The position numbers were made by a program, and so were the translations under genes. The notes beneath the pieces were generated by a model. That model was not told the DNA's origin. It did not search any database and saw nothing but the letters and a program-made list of their open reading frames with translations. Positions 9,894 through 15,651 of a DNA stretch of 59,357 nt are shown piece after piece; the first letter of the stretch is position 1, and every line of letters begins with the position of its first letter. Origin of the DNA: a virus (taxonomy: Duplodnaviria; Caudoviricetes); IMG/VR virus record IMGVR_UViG_3300033148_005636, positions 1-59,357 of that record; one strand, written 5' to 3'.

Positions 9894-11270
9894 TCACCAA
9901 CGCTGATCTACCCCGTCAGATTCGCGCGCCCTGCCCTCCGGCGCATCGGTGATGTGCCCCGTCGCAAGGTCGAACCGCACCGCGTGCACCCCGAACGGCG
10001 GCCTCCGCCGACACGCGTGCAGCCGCAACCGCCCCGACTCCTCCGCCTGCCAATCCTCTCGCCGCCGCTGTGCCCGACGACCCTCAGGCCCCCGCTCAAC
10101 ATCGAACACCAGCGTAGCCGCCTCGTCCCACGCCCGCGCCCACTTCGCGTGCCGCCCCGCCTGACCGTCCGTCAACTGCGATGGCACGATGATAGGGCAC
10201 CGCAGTTCCGCGGCCAGCGCCGCAATCCGATTCGCCTTGTCCTCCGCCGCCTGCACCAGCGTGTCACCCTTGCCCCCCTGGATTAGCTGGGCGTAATCTA
10301 TCAGCACCAGCCCAATCCGCTCGCTGATGCTGATGCGGCGCAGGTCGGTGAGCAGGCGGTCGAGGTCGAAGATGCTACCGCTCACGTAGAGCGGCAACCC
10401 CCGCCACTTCTGCGCCGCCTGCCGGAATCGCTCGCGCTCCTTAGCCGTCACGGGGCTCGCGGGCGAGAACACCGACGCCGAGAACTCGCCCAGCCACGCC
10501 ATCGCCCGCTCCTCCCACACGTCCTGCCCCTCAAGGACGTACGCCACCGCGCACCGGCCATTCTCCCCCTCCTCCGCGAACTCAAGCGCCGAGGACAGGA
10601 TCGCATTCAGCCCCACCATCGACTTGCCCGCCTTCTCGACGCCGCGCACTACCACCAGCCCATGCCCGGCCAGCCCGCCCATCTGCCGGTCGAGGTCCGG
10701 GATGCCCAGCCGCGCCGCGCTCACATGCGGCGGCGCCTCAAGCGCCGTCTCCAGCCGCGCCACCATCTTCTCCGCGTATTCTGCCGCCCGCACCGCCCCC
10801 TGCCCAGCCGTACGGACGCTGCACAACTCCGCGACCGCCCGCGCCGCCTCCGCCAAGACCTCCGCAGGGTCGTCCGGCTTGTCGTACGCCGCCGACTGTA
10901 GCTCAGCGCCCAGTCGCACCAGCGCCCTCAGCACCGCACAGTCGGCCACGATGCTCCCGTAGCGAATCGTGTGCGCGCTCGTCGGCACCTGCGCTATGAG
11001 CGCCGTGAGATACTCGCCGCCTCCACACCGCTCCAACACCTCGCGCCGCCGCAACTCCGCCGCCACCGTCACCGGGTCCACAGCCCCACCGCTGTCCGCC
11101 ACGTGCTCGATGGCGCTGAATATCTCCCGGTGCGCCTCCCGGTAGAAGTCCTCGGCCCGGACGAGCGCCCGCGCCCGCGCCACCGCCTCGGGATCAATCA
11201 GCATCGCCCCGAGTGTCGCCTGTTCGGCCTCAAGGTCCTGCGGGGGCAGGCGGTCGGTGGCGTCAGTCAC
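9894..11270 (-). CDS. dnaB: DnaB-like replicative helicase (divergent)
   Basis: PPQDLEAEQATLGAML N-terminal domain, Walker A GVEKAGKS, Walker B LVLIDY, and SQL. Confidence 0.88.
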   Translation of the reverse strand: MTDATDRLPPQDLEAEQATLGAMLIDPEAVARARALVRAEDFYREAHREIFSAIEHVADSGGAVDPVTVAAELRRREVLERCGGGEYLTALIAQVPTSAHTIRYGSIVADCAVLRALVRLGAELQSAAYDKPDDPAEVLAEAARAVAELCSVRTAGQGAVRAAEYAEKMVARLETALEAPPHVSAARLGIPDLDRQMGGLAGHGLVVVRGVEKAGKSMVGLNAILSSALEFAEEGENGRCAVAYVLEGQDVWEERAMAWLGEFSASVFSPASPVTAKERERFRQAAQKWRGLPLYVSGSIFDLDRLLTDLRRISISERIGLVLIDYAQLIQGGKGDTLVQAAEDKANRIAALAAELRCPIIVPSQLTDGQAGRHAKWARAWDEAATLVFDVERGPEGRRAQRRREDWQAEESGRLRLHACRRRPPFGVHAVRFDLATGHITDAPEGRARESDGVDQRW

Positions 11271-11500
11271 GATTGCCCCTCCCGGCTCTCCGCAACGCCC
11301 GCCTGCTGCTCATACCAGAACGGCCTGTCGCGCTTCACTACGTCCACCTGACCATCGGGAGACACGTTCATCTCATACTGCTCCGTATCTGACCCCATAT
11401 AGACCATGACACCACGGCGAGGGTCGCACGCCACACGCTCGATGCGAAATGGCCCCCAACGGAAGCCGTACGTCGTCTCAGCGAGGTCGAAGCCACTCAT
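11267..11500 (-). CDS. Hypothetical protein
   Basis: Overlaps both neighbours by 4 bp. Confidence 0.6.
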   Translation of the reverse strand: MSGFDLAETTYGFRWGPFRIERVACDPRRGVMVYMGSDTEQYEMNVSPDGQVDVVKRDRPFWYEQQAGVAESREGQS

Positions 11501-12606
11501 CCCTGAGCCTCCGGTCTCTCTTCTGGGTGCTCAGCGTAGTACGCCTCCCACCGCGCCTCCCGCTCTGCATCCAGCTTCCGCTGCAATTCCCATGCCCGGT
11601 CAAGGTCCGGGTCCCTGTCATCCTCCGCTTCCTCGCGCTCGCGCTCGATACGTTCGAGCCACTTTGCGGGCAGATGCTTCTCCGTGGCCTTCGGCGGGTA
11701 GCGCTCCAGCAGCGCTACGGCGTCGTCCTCGTCGGTGATGTACCAGTCCGCCTCGCCCTCTATAGCGATGATCAGTTCCACGAGCCAGCGGTCGCAGATA
11801 TGCTGTGACCACGGGAGATCGAAACACGCATTGCGCAGGTTGGGGTAGTTGAGCTTCTTCATGCCCACATCGTCGGGCAGGTCGTCGTAGGGCCGTGCGC
11901 CGTTGCCGTTGCCGTTGGAAGTACTCTCTTGAGACTCTTCGTCGTGTACGTCTGTGTCTGGTCTAGTCTGGTCTAGTCTAGTCTGGTCTAGTCTGTTGCC
12001 GTCGTGTTCGGCACCTGCCGGAACACCTGTAGGAACACCTGTCCCAGCAGGTGTCGAAACAGGTGTTGGAACAGGTGAGGGGAGAGCTGTGGGCTCAGGT
12101 GCAGCGCCGTCCGAGTCACCTGTGCGAGACATGAGGTGCACTACCCGGTCACATGCGGCACTTAGCCCGACACGAAGCCCATACCTGTCGGGCGTGACGT
12201 TCTTCAGGTGGCCGTACTGCTCGGCGAATGCAACCAGATCAGCGGGCGGTTCCCAGTCTGGCGGTGGCGGGTACTCAGGGCCGCTCACGCGCAGCCAGTT
12301 CGGCCTGTCGTGCCGGTGGTAGTCGACGATTTCGAGGAGTTCGTCGCCGTCTACCTCATAGCGCCGGATCAGCCCGCAAGCCTCCATCGCGTCGAGCGCC
12401 CGCGCCGCCTGTGTAGGCGTTATGCGCGCCAGTCCCCCGATGACGTGGGCGAACCTGGCGGGGTCGGCGGTGAACCTGCCGAAGTCGTCGGCGTGGGCCT
12501 TGAGCGGCCAGTATAGGGCGAGGGCCGTTTTCGACTTCCGCCACAGGCAGCACAGGCGCTCAGACAGCATCGCGTCACGGTGCACCTTCGCCCACTGCTT
12601 CGCCAT
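11497..12606 (-). CDS. Phage replication initiator (replisome organiser-like)
   Basis: WAKVH...LYWPLKAHADDFGR...LDAMEACGLI winged-helix N-terminus, a low-complexity repeat-bearing linker, and position upstream of dnaB. Confidence 0.75.
   Translation of the reverse strand: MAKQWAKVHRDAMLSERLCCLWRKSKTALALYWPLKAHADDFGRFTADPARFAHVIGGLARITPTQAARALDAMEACGLIRRYEVDGDELLEIVDYHRHDRPNWLRVSGPEYPPPPDWEPPADLVAFAEQYGHLKNVTPDRYGLRVGLSAACDRVVHLMSRTGDSDGAAPEPTALPSPVPTPVSTPAGTGVPTGVPAGAEHDGNRLDQTRLDQTRPDTDVHDEESQESTSNGNGNGARPYDDLPDDVGMKKLNYPNLRNACFDLPWSQHICDRWLVELIIAIEGEADWYITDEDDAVALLERYPPKATEKHLPAKWLERIEREREEAEDDRDPDLDRAWELQRKLDAEREARWEAYYAEHPEERPEAQG
11956..12101. repeat. Putative replication origin: (GTCTR)8 plus phased CACCTG/CAGGTG iterons
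   Basis: GTCTR x8 at 11956-11995. CACCTG at 12012, 12024, 12036 and CAGGTG at 12048, 12060, 12072, 12096, all on a 12-bp register. Confidence 0.7.
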
Positions 12607-12621
12607 GGCCACCGGACCTCC

Positions 12622-12788
12622 TCAGAACAGACAAGCCCCCGCAGGGACCGCGATCCTGTCCAGCCAAGACGAGGAGGCCGCGTTAGTGATCCCTGCGGGG
12701 GCAATCCGGTTGATGTACATGAAACGAACCTCCTTGAAGCGCCCTGGCTGGACAGGTTCACCATACAACGTCTCGCGCCCTATGTCAA
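12622..12788 (-). promoter_or_regulatory. Promoter plus structured leader (two interleaved stems, 32-aa leader ORF) upstream of the initiator
   Basis: TTGACA(12788-12783)-17-TATGGT(12765-12760). Inverted repeats 12745-12756/12655-12666 and 12690-12702/12635-12647. AAGGAGG-ATG ORF 12720-12622. Confidence 0.65.
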
Positions 12789-12805
12789 TCGCGCTGTCGC
12801 GGCCG

Positions 12806-12890
12806 TTGCCGCACCTCGCCTTACCTTGCCATGCCTCACCCTGCCTAGCCATGCCATACCCGGCCTCGCCTAGCCTCGCCGCACCGCGCC
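12806..12890 (-). ncRNA. GGY-NN pentamer array A (17 units), candidate guide RNA
   Basis: 17 consecutive perfect GGC/GGT+NN units starting at the base after the TAA of the RAMP-like gene. Confidence 0.8.
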
Positions 12891-13421
12891 TTACAAAGCA
12901 CTCCACGCCGTGACGACGAACCGACCCATCGGCCCCTTGCAGTCTGGCCGCCAGTCCAGTACGCCGACGCGCGACCCAGCGTCGTCAATGATCTGGCGCA
13001 ACTGCTTCTCCGTCACGAGCGCCGGGTCGTACTGGATCGTCGCCTCGATGCGCCACTCGTCGAACCGTGGGCGGTGCCGCACCACACGGCCCTTCGTGCT
13101 GGGCACGACGACCGAGCGGCTGTCGATGGTGTACTCCTGCGGGTCGAGGATGAGGTACTCGGGCTCGATGGCGATACAGGCCGCGACGGGCTTCTGGAGG
13201 CTCGCGCGCCCCTTGCCCTTGGAGTAGACGGCAGCGCGAATGAGGGCCTGCCGCAGGGCCTCCGCCGGGATGTACAGCTCGCCGTCCGGGGTGCGATAGG
13301 CGGCGATCTCCGCCTGGTCCTCGGGCGTCCGCTTCTCCAGCGGAGGGTCGATGTCCTCCAACGGAAATCTGTGCATGAGCAGCGGACTGATACCCGTCAG
13401 TTCGATCTTCACGGCGTCCAT
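12891..13421 (-). CDS. Standalone Cas7/RAMP-like protein (176 aa)
   Basis: N-terminal strand IELTGISPLLMH, YIPAEALRQAL (compare Csm3-type IPGSSLKG), and a C-terminal Gly-rich loop GSRVGVLDWRPDCKGPMGRF. RBS AAGGAG 10 nt before the ATG. Confidence 0.8.
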   Translation of the reverse strand: MDAVKIELTGISPLLMHRFPLEDIDPPLEKRTPEDQAEIAAYRTPDGELYIPAEALRQALIRAAVYSKGKGRASLQKPVAACIAIEPEYLILDPQEYTIDSRSVVVPSTKGRVVRHRPRFDEWRIEATIQYDPALVTEKQLRQIIDDAGSRVGVLDWRPDCKGPMGRFVVTAWSAL

Positions 13422-13471
13422 CGTCGTCACGCTCCTTCTGTGGTCTGTCTCCTTGACATGCCTCGCTAACG

Positions 13472-13596
13472 TCACCCTGCCTCGTCTTGCCACACCTTAC
13501 CCAGCCCTACCGTGCCCGGCCTTGCCGGACCCCGCCCTGCCCTGCCTCGCCAGGCCGCGCCCCGCCAGGCCAGGCCTTACCGGGCCGCGCCTCACC
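13472..13596 (-). ncRNA. GGY-NN pentamer array B (25 units), candidate guide RNA
   Basis: 24 of 25 units are GGY-NN; one degenerate unit (GAC-GA at 13482-13486). Confidence 0.8.
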
Positions 13597-13619
13597 CCGA
13601 GAAGACTCGTAAGCGTCCC

Positions 13620-13734
13620 CTGCCTCGCCCCGCCGCGCCGGGCATTGCCACACCTCGCCCAGCCGTGCCAAGCCTCGCCAGGCCACGCCTCGCCACGCCT
13701 CGCCATGCCATGCCTAACCTCGCCACGCCAAGCC
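13620..13734 (-). ncRNA. GGY-NN pentamer array C (23 units), candidate guide RNA
   Basis: 22 of 23 units are GGY-NN; one degenerate unit (TGC-CC at 13640-13644). Separated from array B by a 23-nt linker that can form a hairpin. Confidence 0.8.
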
Positions 13735-13745
13735 GTACATGCACA

Positions 13746-13907
13746 GCCCCGCGCATACCAGAGCCGCTGTGTGGGGGGAGACAGCAATCGGTACGCGCGG
13801 GGCAATCCGCGTGTCGGGTTCGGGCCAGTTGTCCGCGGCTCATGACTCTTCATCGATGCTGTCTCCCCAGACATCTTCATCCTACCACATCCGCGCGGCC
13901 CCGTCAA
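13746..13907 (-). promoter_or_regulatory. Sigma70-type promoter and pseudoknot-like leader for the array/RAMP locus
   Basis: TTGACG(13907-13902)-17-TAGGAT(13884-13879) with extended TG. Stems 13857-13868/13775-13786 (12 bp) and 13790-13803/13746-13759 (14 bp, one G-U). Confidence 0.7.
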
Positions 13908-14452
13908 GCCCCGATGACCCAGACCTGCCGCACACCCGCGTTGTCGTCGCCCCACAAGGTGCCGCGCCGGGGTTCCCAGAAGTCCAGCCACAGGTCGGCG
14001 CCCTTGCGACGGGCGACGCGGTCGTTGCGGCGCGCGCCGGTATCAAGCACCTGCCGGATGCCGGTTCGCGGGTGCCAGACCCACGTGTATGCGGGCAGCA
14101 GGTTGGCCGCCACGCACCGCTCGTCCACACCGTGGCCGTAGCGCGTCCCCTGCCCGCGCGGGAAGCCCTCCTCCGGGAAGTAGGTGGTGAGCCACGCGCG
14201 AAGCCGTCGCACGTCGCCCTCCAGCGCCCGTTCGTATCCCTCGCGTTGCCAGTCCTCAAGTTCTCCGAAGCAGCCCGATAATGCCTTGGTCGCGCAGCGT
14301 TGCAGCGGTTCGTCGGGCAGGTCCGCCACAGCCTCGACGGCGCTGTCCGGTTCAGCACTCTCCACCACTCGCGGCCCCCACGCCACGGCGCACGAGACAC
14401 CCAGCAGCGTCGCCATCAGCCCGCACGTCACCGCTGTGCGTGGTGTCCTCAC
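13904..14452 (-). CDS. Secreted or membrane 3D/DPBB-like domain protein
   Basis: N-terminal hydrophobic segment; LTTY...CVAAN...VLDTGA...LDFW resembles 3D-domain motifs. Confidence 0.55.
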   Translation of the reverse strand: MRTPRTAVTCGLMATLLGVSCAVAWGPRVVESAEPDSAVEAVADLPDEPLQRCATKALSGCFGELEDWQREGYERALEGDVRRLRAWLTTYFPEEGFPRGQGTRYGHGVDERCVAANLLPAYTWVWHPRTGIRQVLDTGARRNDRVARRKGADLWLDFWEPRRGTLWGDDNAGVRQVWVIGA

Positions 14453-15651
14453 TGCACATCCTCCTCCTCGCAGCCATCGATGCGGAACCGCTCCGCCCCG
14501 TTCCACTTCCGCGGCTCCATCAGCCCCCGCAGGGCCTCAGCGGCGGTGTCGGCCTCGCCATGCCCGAATGGGTCTTCGTCGCGCTCGACAAGGGCCAGCA
14601 GGCGACCGAGGGCCTTCGGGTCCGGGTCGGGGAACAGGACCTCCGTCACCTCGTCCTCGTCAAGGCCCGCGTCCGTCAACACCTCCGCCGCCCGCTGCCG
14701 CTCCACGCTGCGCTTGAGCACGTACTCGCCGTCATAGACGGCTGCCCCGTCACGCTCGACGACGTGGGCCGGCCGCCCGCGATAGGCCACCTTGCCCGCG
14801 GCGCTCACCGGGCCGTGCTCGCGGACCCATGCACTCACCGCATTGCGCAGGCGCTTGAGGTCGGCTTCGTGGGCGACGATGCGGCGCAGGGCGTCCTCAG
14901 CGTCCGCGGTGCAGGTGATCGCCACGCCGGTGCCAGCCGCGTACGGGCACACGTGCGTGTAGTCGCACCATGCACACGCGTGAGGTGAGGGCGTCGCCTC
15001 GAACCGCTTGTTGGCGGCGATGCGTCGCGCAATAGCCACCGCCCAGTCCGGCCGCAGTTCGTCGGGGGCCATCCACCACTCGTGCGTGACCCCGTTGCCG
15101 ATGTAGTGCGCGCGCAGCATCACCTCGGATGCGCCGCTGAACTGCGGCATTCGCAGGAGCGCCCAGCCGTACATCATCAGTTGGGCAGGCGGCTCGTCGG
15201 GGCGGTCCTGCGCCCAACTGGACTTGTAGTCCGTCACGAACAGCCGCCCGTCCGCGGTCGCGTACTCCACCAGGTCCACGCGCCCCTTGAACTTGCCGAG
15301 GCCCTCGGGCAGGTCGGCGGCGACTTCGCGTTCCACGCCCTCGCCGTCCGCCACCACCAGCTCGCGATTGAACTCAACCTGCCGGGCGAATGCGCGGCAG
15401 AGTCTCTCAACTCCGAGCCCGTCGGGGCGGTAGCCGACGGCCTGCTCGTCCGCCCACTCCCAATCGCGCGGCAGGCCCGCCTCAATGCAGTGGCGGCCGT
15501 ACATCTCGGCGAACTCGTGCACGAGCCGCCCGCGGATGCAGGCTTCGCTCTCCTGCCTCTGCTCGCGGTCCACGTAGGCGAAGCGCCATGCCAGCGGGCA
15601 GCGCGCGTAGAGCGACAGGCTGCTGTAGCTCACGTGCGTCGGTTCGGTCAT
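14449..15651 (-). CDS. PD-(D/E)XK RecB/Cas4-like exonuclease
   Basis: SYSSL...CP, GRLVHE, GRVDL, DYKS, QLMMY and CAWCDYTHVCP Fe-S cysteines. Confidence 0.88.
   Translation of the reverse strand: MTEPTHVSYSSLSLYARCPLAWRFAYVDREQRQESEACIRGRLVHEFAEMYGRHCIEAGLPRDWEWADEQAVGYRPDGLGVERLCRAFARQVEFNRELVVADGEGVEREVAADLPEGLGKFKGRVDLVEYATADGRLFVTDYKSSWAQDRPDEPPAQLMMYGWALLRMPQFSGASEVMLRAHYIGNGVTHEWWMAPDELRPDWAVAIARRIAANKRFEATPSPHACAWCDYTHVCPYAAGTGVAITCTADAEDALRRIVAHEADLKRLRNAVSAWVREHGPVSAAGKVAYRGRPAHVVERDGAAVYDGEYVLKRSVERQRAAEVLTDAGLDEDEVTEVLFPDPDPKALGRLLALVERDEDPFGHGEADTAAEALRGLMEPRKWNGAERFRIDGCEEEDVQ

What the first reader, a model, noticed from the sequence alone, without database searches (positions are those of the whole stretch)
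12806..13659. All three arrays share a 3' boundary motif, GGYRA-GGTGY-GGCAA, after which the register breaks
Seen: C has GGCGA GGTGT GGCAA then TGC (13659-13645); B has GGTAA GGTGT GGCAA then GAC (13501-13487); A has GGCGA GGTGC GGCAA then CGG (12820-12806). The only non-GGY positions come directly after this motif. Short hairpins are possible downstream (GCCC/GGGC and AGGGGAC/GTCTTCT after C; CGCG-ACAG-CGCG after A). Inference: this is a conserved handle or processing signal that defines three separate guides of 18, 22 and 17 uninterrupted units, whose last three NN are probably constant rather than target-specifying.
Basis: partly seen in the sequence, partly recalled or inferred. Interest (0 to 1): 0.72.

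Follow-up and report, generated by a model that had tools for sequence, protein, structure and literature searches.

The report
Shared 3' end of VIPR guide arrays
The three five-base repeat arrays are guide RNAs of a phage VIPR system, a CRISPR-related DNA silencer described in 2026, and their shared last three units look like the start of the guides' constant 3' end rather than a new signal.

Summary
Unit shuffles reach that much 3'-anchored agreement in 160 of 200,000 trials.

The locus is a VIPR system, known from three 2026 bioRxiv preprints. The 176-aa gene between the arrays matches the solved SUSP1 Vipr protein (36pp, E 9.5e-13). GGYNN arrays lie on the gene's strand in 78 of 85 homologous loci. 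This scan has met VIPR before on other DNA.

For it:
- Arrays of one locus share their last unit far more often than shuffles allow (0.37 against 0.09).
- The closest relative keeps the motif across a 10-unit insertion.

Against it:
- None of 149 arrays in other loci ends with this motif.
- Its two other occurrences lie inside arrays.
- The register does not break in B and C. One off-pattern unit is followed by more in-phase units and a shared tail block.
- The proposed hairpins fold no better than shuffles.

No RNA data and no natural targets were found, so the role of the last NN stays open. Verdict: a new member of a known kind.

The parts
13879..13907 (-). Promoter-like site (TTGACG-17-TAGGAT) upstream of array C; probable start of the unit that carries the arrays and vipr
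   Evidence: 2 promoter-like sites in 12500-14100 against 0.2 expected. Homology to the close relative L005 ends just downstream of this site. Function is inferred.
13645..13734 (-). Array C: 18 uninterrupted GGY-NN units (candidate vrRNA guide tract)
13645..13659 (-). Motif copy C: GGCGA GGTGT GGCAA
13597..13644 (-). 3' continuation of C. It holds one off-pattern unit (13644-13640), four in-phase GGY units (13639-13620) and the tail. The block 13627-13606 is shared with B.
   Evidence: 21 of 24 aligned positions identical; 0 of 1000 shuffles score as high
13487..13596 (-). Array B: 22 uninterrupted GGY-NN units
13487..13501 (-). Motif copy B: GGTAA GGTGT GGCAA
13422..13486 (-). 3' continuation of B. 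It holds one off-pattern unit (13486-13482), two in-phase units (13481-13472), the shared tail block 13484-13462, and then the ribosome-binding site of vipr.
12891..13421 (-). vipr gene: 176 aa (P0001) plus the stop codon; a Cas7-like RAMP
   Evidence: phrog_4652, E 1.7e-22; pLDDT 91.1; type VII Cas7 and Csm3 as top folds; PDB 36pp SUSP1 Vipr, E 9.5e-13
12806..12890 (-). Array A: 17 uninterrupted GGY-NN units, starting on the base after the vipr stop codon
12806..12820 (-). Motif copy A: GGCGA GGTGC GGCAA
12760..12788 (-). Promoter-like site (TTGACA-17-TATGGT) 17 bases after array A. It belongs to the next (replication) operon and bounds the locus.
   Evidence: The downstream ORF 11497-12612 matches replication-initiator PHROGs.

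Best explanation
Window 12806-13907 (minus strand) is a VIPR (Viral Interference Programmable Repeat) locus of a phage. One promoter-like site is followed by two guide arrays (C, B), the vipr gene and a third array (A).

By the published mechanism, which was not tested here, Vipr protomers bind one GGY each and polymerise along the RNA. The NN dinucleotides are presented to pair with double-stranded DNA, skipping every third target base, and the target is silenced.

The shared 15 bases GGYRA-GGTGY-GGCAA are most likely the array-proximal start of this phage lineage's constant 3' region. That region is the vrRNA part carried along unchanged when guide tracts are exchanged or duplicated. In B and C it continues, still in 5-base phase, through one degenerate unit into a shared tail block.

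The motif is lineage-specific. It is neither a family-wide handle nor by itself a stop or cleavage signal.

Shown here:
- Membership of the protein and arrays in VIPR.
- The non-random sharing of the motif.
- The family-wide constancy of the last unit.

Inferred:
- That the motif belongs to the functional constant region, used for assembly or capping.
- That all three arrays are expressed as separate vrRNAs.
For: Membership in VIPR:
- A profile of the protein's relatives hits one PDB sequence only, 'SUSP1 Vipr protein' 36pp_D, E 9.5e-13 over profile positions 5-170.
- The AlphaFold2 model has pLDDT 91.1 and pTM 0.85. Its best Foldseek matches are Cas7 of type VII and Csm3 of type III-A, E from 1.5e-6, with 90 chains at E <= 1e-3.
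- The SUSP1 residues that hold G1, G2 and Y3 are H17, R138, D177, W178 and R179 (paper 2, section 5). They align to H17, R117, D156, W157 and R158 of P0001 through the Felixounavirus tootiki homologue. H17, R117 and R158 are invariant, and D156 nearly so, in 32 relatives.
- Strict GGY arrays of 6 or more units lie on the gene's strand in 78 of 85 sequences (the window region plus L001-L084), and on the opposite strand in 0.
- The three preprints describe exactly this architecture.

The motif:
- It is unique to the three array ends in the window, with P = 0.0008 by unit shuffles.
- The 95%-identical relative L005 keeps GGCGA GGTGC GGCGA as the last three units, although 10 units are inserted just before the last two and the 5' units differ.
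- B and C also share unit -4 (GGCTG) and a 21-of-24 tail block. 0 of 1000 shuffles score as high.
- A similar tail start (GGCAR GGK..CGTT after GGCAA plus one GMCRR unit) recurs in L007, which is 61% identical in protein, and in L044.

Family-wide pattern:
- In 39 deduplicated multi-array loci, the mean per-locus share of array pairs with the same NN is 0.366 at the last unit against 0.089 in shuffles. 0 of 2000 shuffles reach it.
- Counted by pairs, the share is 72/188, 49/188 and 25/188 at units -1, -2 and -3, against 744/9754 in the interior. There is no comparable effect at the 5' end.
- In the close clade, AA or AG fills 27, 38 and 36 of 64 arrays at units -1, -2 and -3. In the interior, AA is 0.11 and AG is below 0.06.
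Against: - None of the 64 close-clade and 85 distant-clade arrays ends in GGYRA-GGTGY-GGCAA.
- The 15-mer occurs in only 2 of the 226 loci held (L028, L073), both times inside an array with normal units after it. It is therefore not sufficient as a boundary.
- In L005 the last unit is GGCGA, not GGCAA.
- With loci weighted equally, sharing at units -2, -3 and -4 is only 0.137, 0.136 and 0.163 against 0.089. 178, 189 and 48 of 2000 shuffles reach these values. So 'three constant units' is not a family rule.
- Array A has no tail resembling those of B and C (shuffle P 0.74 and 0.37).
- The window's -2 unit (GT or GC) does not fit the clade's AR preference.
- B and C could simply be recent duplicates.
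- No RNA ends, no RNP data and no targets are available for this locus.
- No vap gene was identified.
Confidence: 0.6

Rival explanations
1. The shared units are only a remnant of descent. The arrays arose by duplication of one vrRNA cassette, interior units were later replaced, and the 3' units are simply the part not yet overwritten. They have no role of their own.
For: - B and C share four terminal units and a tail block.
- The window and L005 arrays are mosaics with an identical 8-unit core, different 5' parts and a 10-unit indel.
- The exact motif is absent from all other loci's array ends.
Against: - Within-locus sharing is concentrated at the very last unit in 39 independent loci and decays to background by units -5 and -6. 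There is no such effect at the 5' end. Random survival of ancestral units would not be anchored that way.
- The last three units carry a clade-wide AA/AG bias.
Confidence: 0.2
2. The last three NN are ordinary target-specifying positions. The three guides end alike because their targets share a short coding motif, with codon positions 1-2 reading RA, GY, AA.
For: - In SUSP1 the 3'-proximal protomers 8-12 are always engaged on DNA, and the Fig. 2A legend describes a register across all 12 protomers (paper 2, and passages).
- Paper 1 states that specificity lies entirely in the NN.
- The LESphi2 array 1 guide matches 20 of 20 informative bases, the terminal GGCAA unit included, in 2 of 80 target loci (L168, L183).
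Against: - In 78 of the 80 LESphi2 target loci the last unit is not fully matched. 69 of them carry one identical target with units 1-9 at 18 of 18 and unit 10 at 0 of 2.
- Three unrelated guides sharing three consecutive codon-like pairs exactly at their ends has P about 0.0008 under shuffling.
- No target was found for any of the three arrays, so no shared target motif is in evidence.
Confidence: 0.1
3. The motif is itself an RNA processing signal. A host or phage RNase cuts at or just after GGCAA and defines the mature 3' ends there.
For: - All three uninterrupted runs stop at GGCAA.
- The arrays appear to share one promoter with no terminator-like site between them, so some processing is needed.
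- GGCAA is the last unit in 14 of 64 close-clade arrays.
Against: - The same 15-mer is interior in L028 and L073.
- B and C continue in phase into a conserved block. That would be cut off and so should not be conserved.
- No Rfam family, hammerhead ribozymes included, matches 11000-15500 at E <= 1.
- There is no supported local structure.
Confidence: 0.1

Closest known systems
VIPR systems (Vipr + vrRNA, with or without Vap). Sources: bioRxiv 10.64898/2026.04.26.720920 (results and three methods sections read, further passages searched); 10.64898/2026.04.26.720927 (outline, sections 5 and 8 read, further passages searched); 10.64898/2026.10.15.759431 (passages only).
   Same: - A lone minimal Cas7-like RAMP encoded in a phage.
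- Arrays of GGY-NN pentamers on the gene's strand, both upstream and downstream of the gene.
- A variable tract followed by a conserved 3' part.
- The GGY-contact residues are conserved.
- Sequence match to the solved SUSP1 Vipr.
   Different: - The protein is only 28% identical to the Felixounavirus (SUSP1-type) homologue.
- The uninterrupted tracts have 17-22 units, against the 9-16 reported for the SUSP1 and P. fulva clades.
- No vap gene was recognised.
- The tail of B and C is unrelated to anything I could compare, and A has no such tail.
- The constant region seems to begin inside the repeat tract, in the last units. The text I read places it after the last repeat. Figures and supplements were not seen.
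- The VIPR type (I-VII) could not be assigned without the supplements.
Class 1 CRISPR-Cas effector backbones (Cas7/Csm3 filaments on crRNA with a repeat-derived handle)
   Same: - The RAMP fold, with best structural matches to type VII Cas7 and type III-A Csm3.
- One protomer per short RNA segment.
- A variable guide capped by a constant segment.
   Different: - There is no repeat-spacer array in the window and no other cas genes.
- The period is 5 nt, with 3 sequestered and 2 pairing bases, instead of 6 nt with 5 pairing bases.
- The constant part is at the 3' end and is not derived from a CRISPR repeat.
TRAP-type RNA binding (protein oligomer reading triplets spaced by 2-3 bases); recalled, considered early as an analogy
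   Same: A periodic triplet plus a 2-base spacer, read by one subunit each.
   Different: - There is no fold or sequence relation. The protein is a RAMP.
- Here the spacers are the informative part.

Membership tests
VIPR system | Vipr protein: a minimal single-RRM RAMP related to the solved SUSP1 Vipr | tested here: met
   A profile of 32 relatives hits PDB 36pp_D 'SUSP1 Vipr protein', E 9.5e-13, as the only PDB sequence at E <= 0.01. The model has pLDDT 91.1. The top Foldseek matches are Cas7 of type VII and Csm3.
VIPR system | Residues that bind G1, G2 and Y3 of each repeat (SUSP1 H17, R138, D177, W178, R179; paper 2, section 5) | tested here: met
   BLASTP against the tootiki (Felixounavirus) homologue aligns H17, R117, D156, W157 and R158 of P0001 with those positions. 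This assumes that tootiki and SUSP1 numbering agree, which I did not verify. H17, R117 and R158 are invariant in 32 relatives.
VIPR system | vrRNA arrays of alternating GGY / NN pentamers next to vipr, on its strand | tested here: met
   Runs of 18, 22 and 17 uninterrupted units, which with a 4-unit run between C and B are the only runs of 4 or more units in the window. 78 of 85 homologous sequences carry such arrays on the gene's strand, 0 on the other strand.
VIPR system | Invariable, structured 3' tail after the repeat tract | tested here: inconclusive
   B and C share a 21-of-24 block and A does not. No fold is better than shuffles. There are too few close relatives for covariation: only L005/L085, plus partial similarity in L007 and L044.
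VIPR system | vap accessory gene beside vipr (typical, not universal: 'stand-alone genes or simple two-gene operons', paper 1 methods) | tested here: inconclusive
   Array A begins on the base after the vipr stop codon, so no gene can lie between them. The upstream 200-aa ORF has no Pfam match above its cutoff and no PHROG match. The downstream ORF matches replication initiators. Neighbours were not compared with published Vap proteins, because the supplements are closed.
VIPR system | vrRNAs expressed and bound by Vipr | not testable with these tools
   No RNA run was listed for the stretch.
VIPR system | Targets that match the NN with one skipped base per unit | tested here: inconclusive
   No match above shuffled controls was found in the window, in the full L005 record or in the fetched loci. 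Five sub-guide scans of public collections gave only chance-level extensions. The rule itself reproduced for LESphi2 array 1: 80 prophage loci, with wobble-position variation tolerated.
CRISPR-Cas (class 1) | Repeat-spacer array and further cas genes | tested here: not met
   The tandem-repeat search of the window lists no repeat-spacer array, only the period-5 arrays here and short simple repeats elsewhere. No Cas family match lies nearby except a weak Cas4-like hit of the PD-(D/E)XK exonuclease, below its cutoff.

The most novel reading that the evidence does not exclude
In this Vipr clade the constant 3' handle of the guide RNA reaches into the repeat tract. The last unit, and here the last three, would be read by the terminal Vipr protomers as a fixed assembly or capping element and would contribute little or nothing to target choice. 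The published rule that every NN specifies the target would then need a positional exception, with lineage-specific terminal units acting like a CRISPR handle.
Probability: 0.3. Interest if true: 0.45.

Novelty: new member of a known kind. Interest (0 to 1): 0.35.

Why it matters
The locus adds a GC-rich, apparently vap-less phage example to the newly described VIPR systems, with unusually long uninterrupted guide tracts. The useful general point is not the motif itself. Across 39 other loci, arrays of one locus share their last unit about four times more often than chance allows. That suggests the boundary between guide and constant region lies inside the repeat tract. It would matter for predicting natural targets, where terminal units would be scored differently, and for designing reprogrammed vrRNAs. 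It is a refinement of a known system, not a new kind of system.

Tried and rejected
1. TRAP-like or other RNA-binding ring. This was my first guess before the homologue and literature searches. I dropped it once the protein proved to be a RAMP and a Vipr relative.

2. Origin iterons or DNA-binding sites. Rejected because arrays are strand-locked to the gene in 78 of 85 loci and match the published RNA.

3. Rfam. No match at E <= 1 in 11000-15500, so no hammerhead-punctuated arrays here.

4. RNA evidence. No RNA holder was listed.

5. Natural targets of the window's arrays under the 1-nt-skip rule.
- In the window, the fetched loci and the whole L005 record, the best scores (C 23/36, B 26/44, A 21/34) lie within shuffled-guide controls.
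- Exact sub-guide scans: A units 6-14, 5 hits in viral contigs. C units 8-15, 11 hits. B units 9-17, 3 hits in genome contigs. B units 12-19, 3 hits. A units 8-15, the core shared with L005, 108 stretches, of which the 104 held as loci L227-L330 were scored.
- In every case the flanking units matched at about the random rate.
- Exact sub-window scans miss targets with scattered mismatches, so this result is no evidence of absence.

6. LESphi2 array 3 gave 30 hits, all at chance level.

7. Conserved structure of the tails. Single-sequence folds are no better than shuffles. There are too few related tails for covariation.

8. Closer relatives.
- The single-protein scans of viral and metagenome contigs returned only one relative, and L005 and L085 have the same sequence.

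9. Within-locus against between-locus tail similarity. The medians are 18 and 11, but the between-locus 99th percentile is inflated by near-duplicate contigs, and 42 of 234 within-locus pairs lie above it. I use this only as background.

10. Supplements of the three preprints are closed. Figs S8, S9, S17 and S18 of paper 1 and Fig. 3B of paper 3 (a logo from -15 to +60 around the tail start) may already show whether terminal units are conserved. My statement that the text places the constant part after the last repeat rests on the sections and passages I read.
Full report
**What is in the sequence**

The minus strand of 12806-13734 holds the only long runs of in-phase GGY-NN pentamers in the 59,357-base window:
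- C, 13734-13645, 18 units.
- B, 13596-13487, 22 units.
- A, 12890-12806, 17 units.
- A 4-unit run, 13639-13620, lying one unit after C and in the same phase.

As a pattern, the 15-mer has exactly these three matches in the window even with one mismatch allowed, against 0.09 expected.

Anchored at the 3' ends, 6 of 9 variable columns agree in all three arrays. Shuffling the units within each array reaches this in 160 of 200,000 trials. The 5' ends agree in only 2 columns. If the anchor is dropped, a 6-of-9 triple somewhere is ordinary, with 263 of 300 shuffles reaching it. The result therefore depends on the end being a privileged position, which the comparative data below support.

The register does not break after the motif in B and C.
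- In C, one off-pattern unit (TGCCC) is followed by four more GGY units in phase.
- In B, one off-pattern unit (GACGA) is followed by GGCAG GGTGA in phase.

Beyond that, B and C share a block, CGAGGCAGGG(T)GACG(C)TTA(G)CGAG, at 13484-13462 and 13627-13606. It is identical at 21 of 24 aligned positions, and none of 1000 shuffles scores as high. The sequence after A resembles neither (P 0.74 and 0.37). Relative to B, C carries an in-phase 15-base insertion between the motif and this block.

The hairpins suggested downstream are not supported. The three 3' regions fold with z-scores of +0.40, -0.59 and +0.30 against shuffles.

**What the locus is**

The ORF between B and A most likely starts at the ATG at 13421, behind a GAAGGAG ribosome-binding site, and encodes 176 aa (P0001).
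- It has no Pfam family but matches phrog_4652, a family of unknown function (E 1.7e-22).
- It has 818 relatives at E <= 1e-3 in the protein collection.
- It has homologues in 158 phage records, among them Felixounavirus, Mycobacterium, Gordonia and Pseudomonas phages.
- The AlphaFold2 model is confident (pLDDT 91.1). Its best PDB fold matches are Cas7 of type VII and Csm3 of type III-A.
- A profile of 32 relatives finds one PDB sequence only, 'SUSP1 Vipr protein' (36pp_D, E 9.5e-13).

A literature search led to three 2026 bioRxiv preprints on VIPR systems.
- Paper 1 (10.64898/2026.04.26.720920; results and methods sections 18 and 20 read). It describes a phage-encoded minimal RAMP, Vipr. It also describes vrRNAs of 9-16 YNNGG repeats followed by an invariable 3' tail. 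dsDNA is recognised by the NN dinucleotides with one target base skipped per unit. There are seven types, with variable array architectures and frequent internal degeneracy of repeats.
- Paper 2 (10.64898/2026.04.26.720927; outline, sections 5 and 8 read, further passages). It gives the cryo-EM picture. One protomer binds per repeat, and the GGY is held by H17, R138, D177, W178 and R179. A 3' pseudoknot caps the RNA, and target engagement is always resolved at protomers 8-12 near the 3' end and grows toward the 5' end.
- Paper 3 (10.64898/2026.10.15.759431; passages only). It treats the tail as what makes a vrRNA competent for Vipr loading. It reports vrRNAs aimed at rivals' vipr genes and at the repeat-tail junction.

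P0001 aligns H17, R117, D156, W157 and R158 with the GGY-contact residues through the tootiki homologue. Several of these are invariant in its relatives.

Strict GGY arrays of 6 or more units are on the gene's strand in 78 of 85 homologous sequences, and never on the other strand. The annotated phages L001-L004 all carry GG-phased runs on the gene's strand, and L002 also has one 4-unit run on the other strand.

The window is a virus record. The identification as a VIPR locus is therefore secure. This scan has made the same identification at least 18 times on other genomes.

**Transcription context**

- A promoter-like site lies at 13907-13879, about 145 bases before C.
- A second lies at 12788-12760, 17 bases after A, in front of the replication-initiator-like gene.
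- No terminator-like site lies between them.

C, B, vipr and A are therefore probably one primary transcript that must be processed. This is inference.

**Is the motif a conserved handle?**

Evidence against:
- None of the 64 arrays in the close clade (46-63% protein identity) and none of the 85 arrays in the distant clade ends in it.
- The 15-mer occurs in only two of the 226 loci held at that point, L028 and L073. In both it sits inside an array and normal units follow.
- The motif is therefore not a family-wide signal and is not sufficient to end an array.

Evidence for:
- The nearest relative, L005 (95% protein identity, about 90% DNA identity in the flanks), has an orthologous downstream array. 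It has a different 5' part, an identical 8-unit core, 10 extra units, and then GGCGA GGTGC GGCGA at the end. The motif is kept with one substitution.
In 39 other deduplicated loci with two or more arrays, arrays of one locus carry the same NN in their last unit in 72 of 188 pairs. The figures are 49 of 188 at -2 and 25 of 188 at -3, against 744 of 9754 for interior units. There is no such effect at the 5' end.
- With each locus weighted equally, only the last unit is clearly non-random (0.366 against 0.089, 0 of 2000 shuffles). Units -2, -3 and -4 are marginal, with 178, 189 and 48 of 2000 shuffles reaching the observed values.
- The close clade has a strong AA/AG preference in its last three units: 27, 38 and 36 of 64 arrays, against under 0.17 in the interior. 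The tail there often starts with GGA or GGG.
- The distant clade ends in AA or AC in 62 of 85 arrays.
- The window's GGCAA fits this pattern. It is the last unit in 14 of 64 close-clade arrays. The GGTGY unit does not fit and looks lineage-specific.
- A tail start like that of B and C recurs in L007 and L044: GGCAA, one GMCRR unit, then GGCAR GGK..CGTT.

**Do the last NN specify the target?**

I could not answer this for the window.
- There are no self-matches, and no matches in the L005 genome or the fetched loci above shuffled controls.
- Five exact sub-guide scans of public collections gave only hits whose flanks match at the random rate.

As a positive control and a proxy, array 1 of Pseudomonas phage LESphi2 (L001) found a real target.
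- A pattern of its first 8 units hit 86 stretches, and I examined 80 loci.
- In 69 of the 80 loci the identical site also matches unit 9 (18 of 18 informative bases) but not the last unit, GGCAA (0 of 2).
- In 2 loci (L168, L183) a variant of the same small gene matches all 10 units. It differs from the main variant at the skipped wobble positions.

This reproduces the 1-nt-skip rule independently. It leaves the role of the terminal unit open. The SUSP1 structures argue that 3'-proximal units are engaged on DNA in that clade.

**Conclusion**

The finding is real and non-random, but it sits inside a system that is already described.

The best reading (about 0.6) is that the motif is the array-proximal beginning of this phage lineage's constant vrRNA 3' region. 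In B and C that region continues through a degenerate unit into a shared tail.

The rivals are:
- a functionless duplication remnant (0.2);
- ordinary guide positions that happen to agree (0.1);
- a cleavage signal in its own right (0.1).

The general observation that the last unit is locus-constant across the family is a modest refinement. Figures I could not see may already show it.

Noticed in passing
L005 747-2488 (same sequence as L085). It replaces the window's 13430-13859 region.: In the closest relative, the upstream vrRNA arrays B and C are replaced by about 1.7 kb. The insert holds a 405-aa TnpB/Cas12f-like ORF (Pfam Cas12f1-like_TNB E 3.9e-24, OrfB_IS605, HTH_OrfB_IS605). It is followed by four 29-31-nt direct repeats at 61-nt spacing, a CRISPR-like mini-array. 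Its third 32-nt spacer matches the early codons of the window's vipr at 32 of 32 bases and L005's own vipr at 31 of 32. This may be a phage-borne type V-like system aimed at, or regulating, vipr. Spacers 1 and 2 have no match in either genome.
   Followed up: partly
L001 2594-2648 (Pseudomonas phage LESphi2) and L138-L217: [quoted passage not shown] It was found in 80 examined loci. Variants differ at the skipped wobble bases.
   Followed up: partly
window 12806-12890 against L005 3043-3167: The orthologous downstream arrays are mosaics. They share an identical 8-unit core, have unrelated 5' units (7 against 5), and differ by a 10-unit insertion bounded by GGCGA units. This suggests guide turnover by recombination between repeat units.
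   Followed up: partly
window 13904-14506 (-): A 200-aa ORF directly upstream of the VIPR promoter, conserved in L005 (99-701). It has no PHROG match and no Pfam match above the cutoff. It was not tested as a possible accessory gene.
   Followed up: no
L073 2150-2310: A long array in a distant relative contains in-phase TGY units (TGCGA, TGCAA) after GGCAA and GGCCG units, like the TGCCC unit after array C here. It ends in GGCAG followed by GGG, as the C continuation does. This is an example of the internal degeneracy mentioned in paper 1.
   Followed up: no
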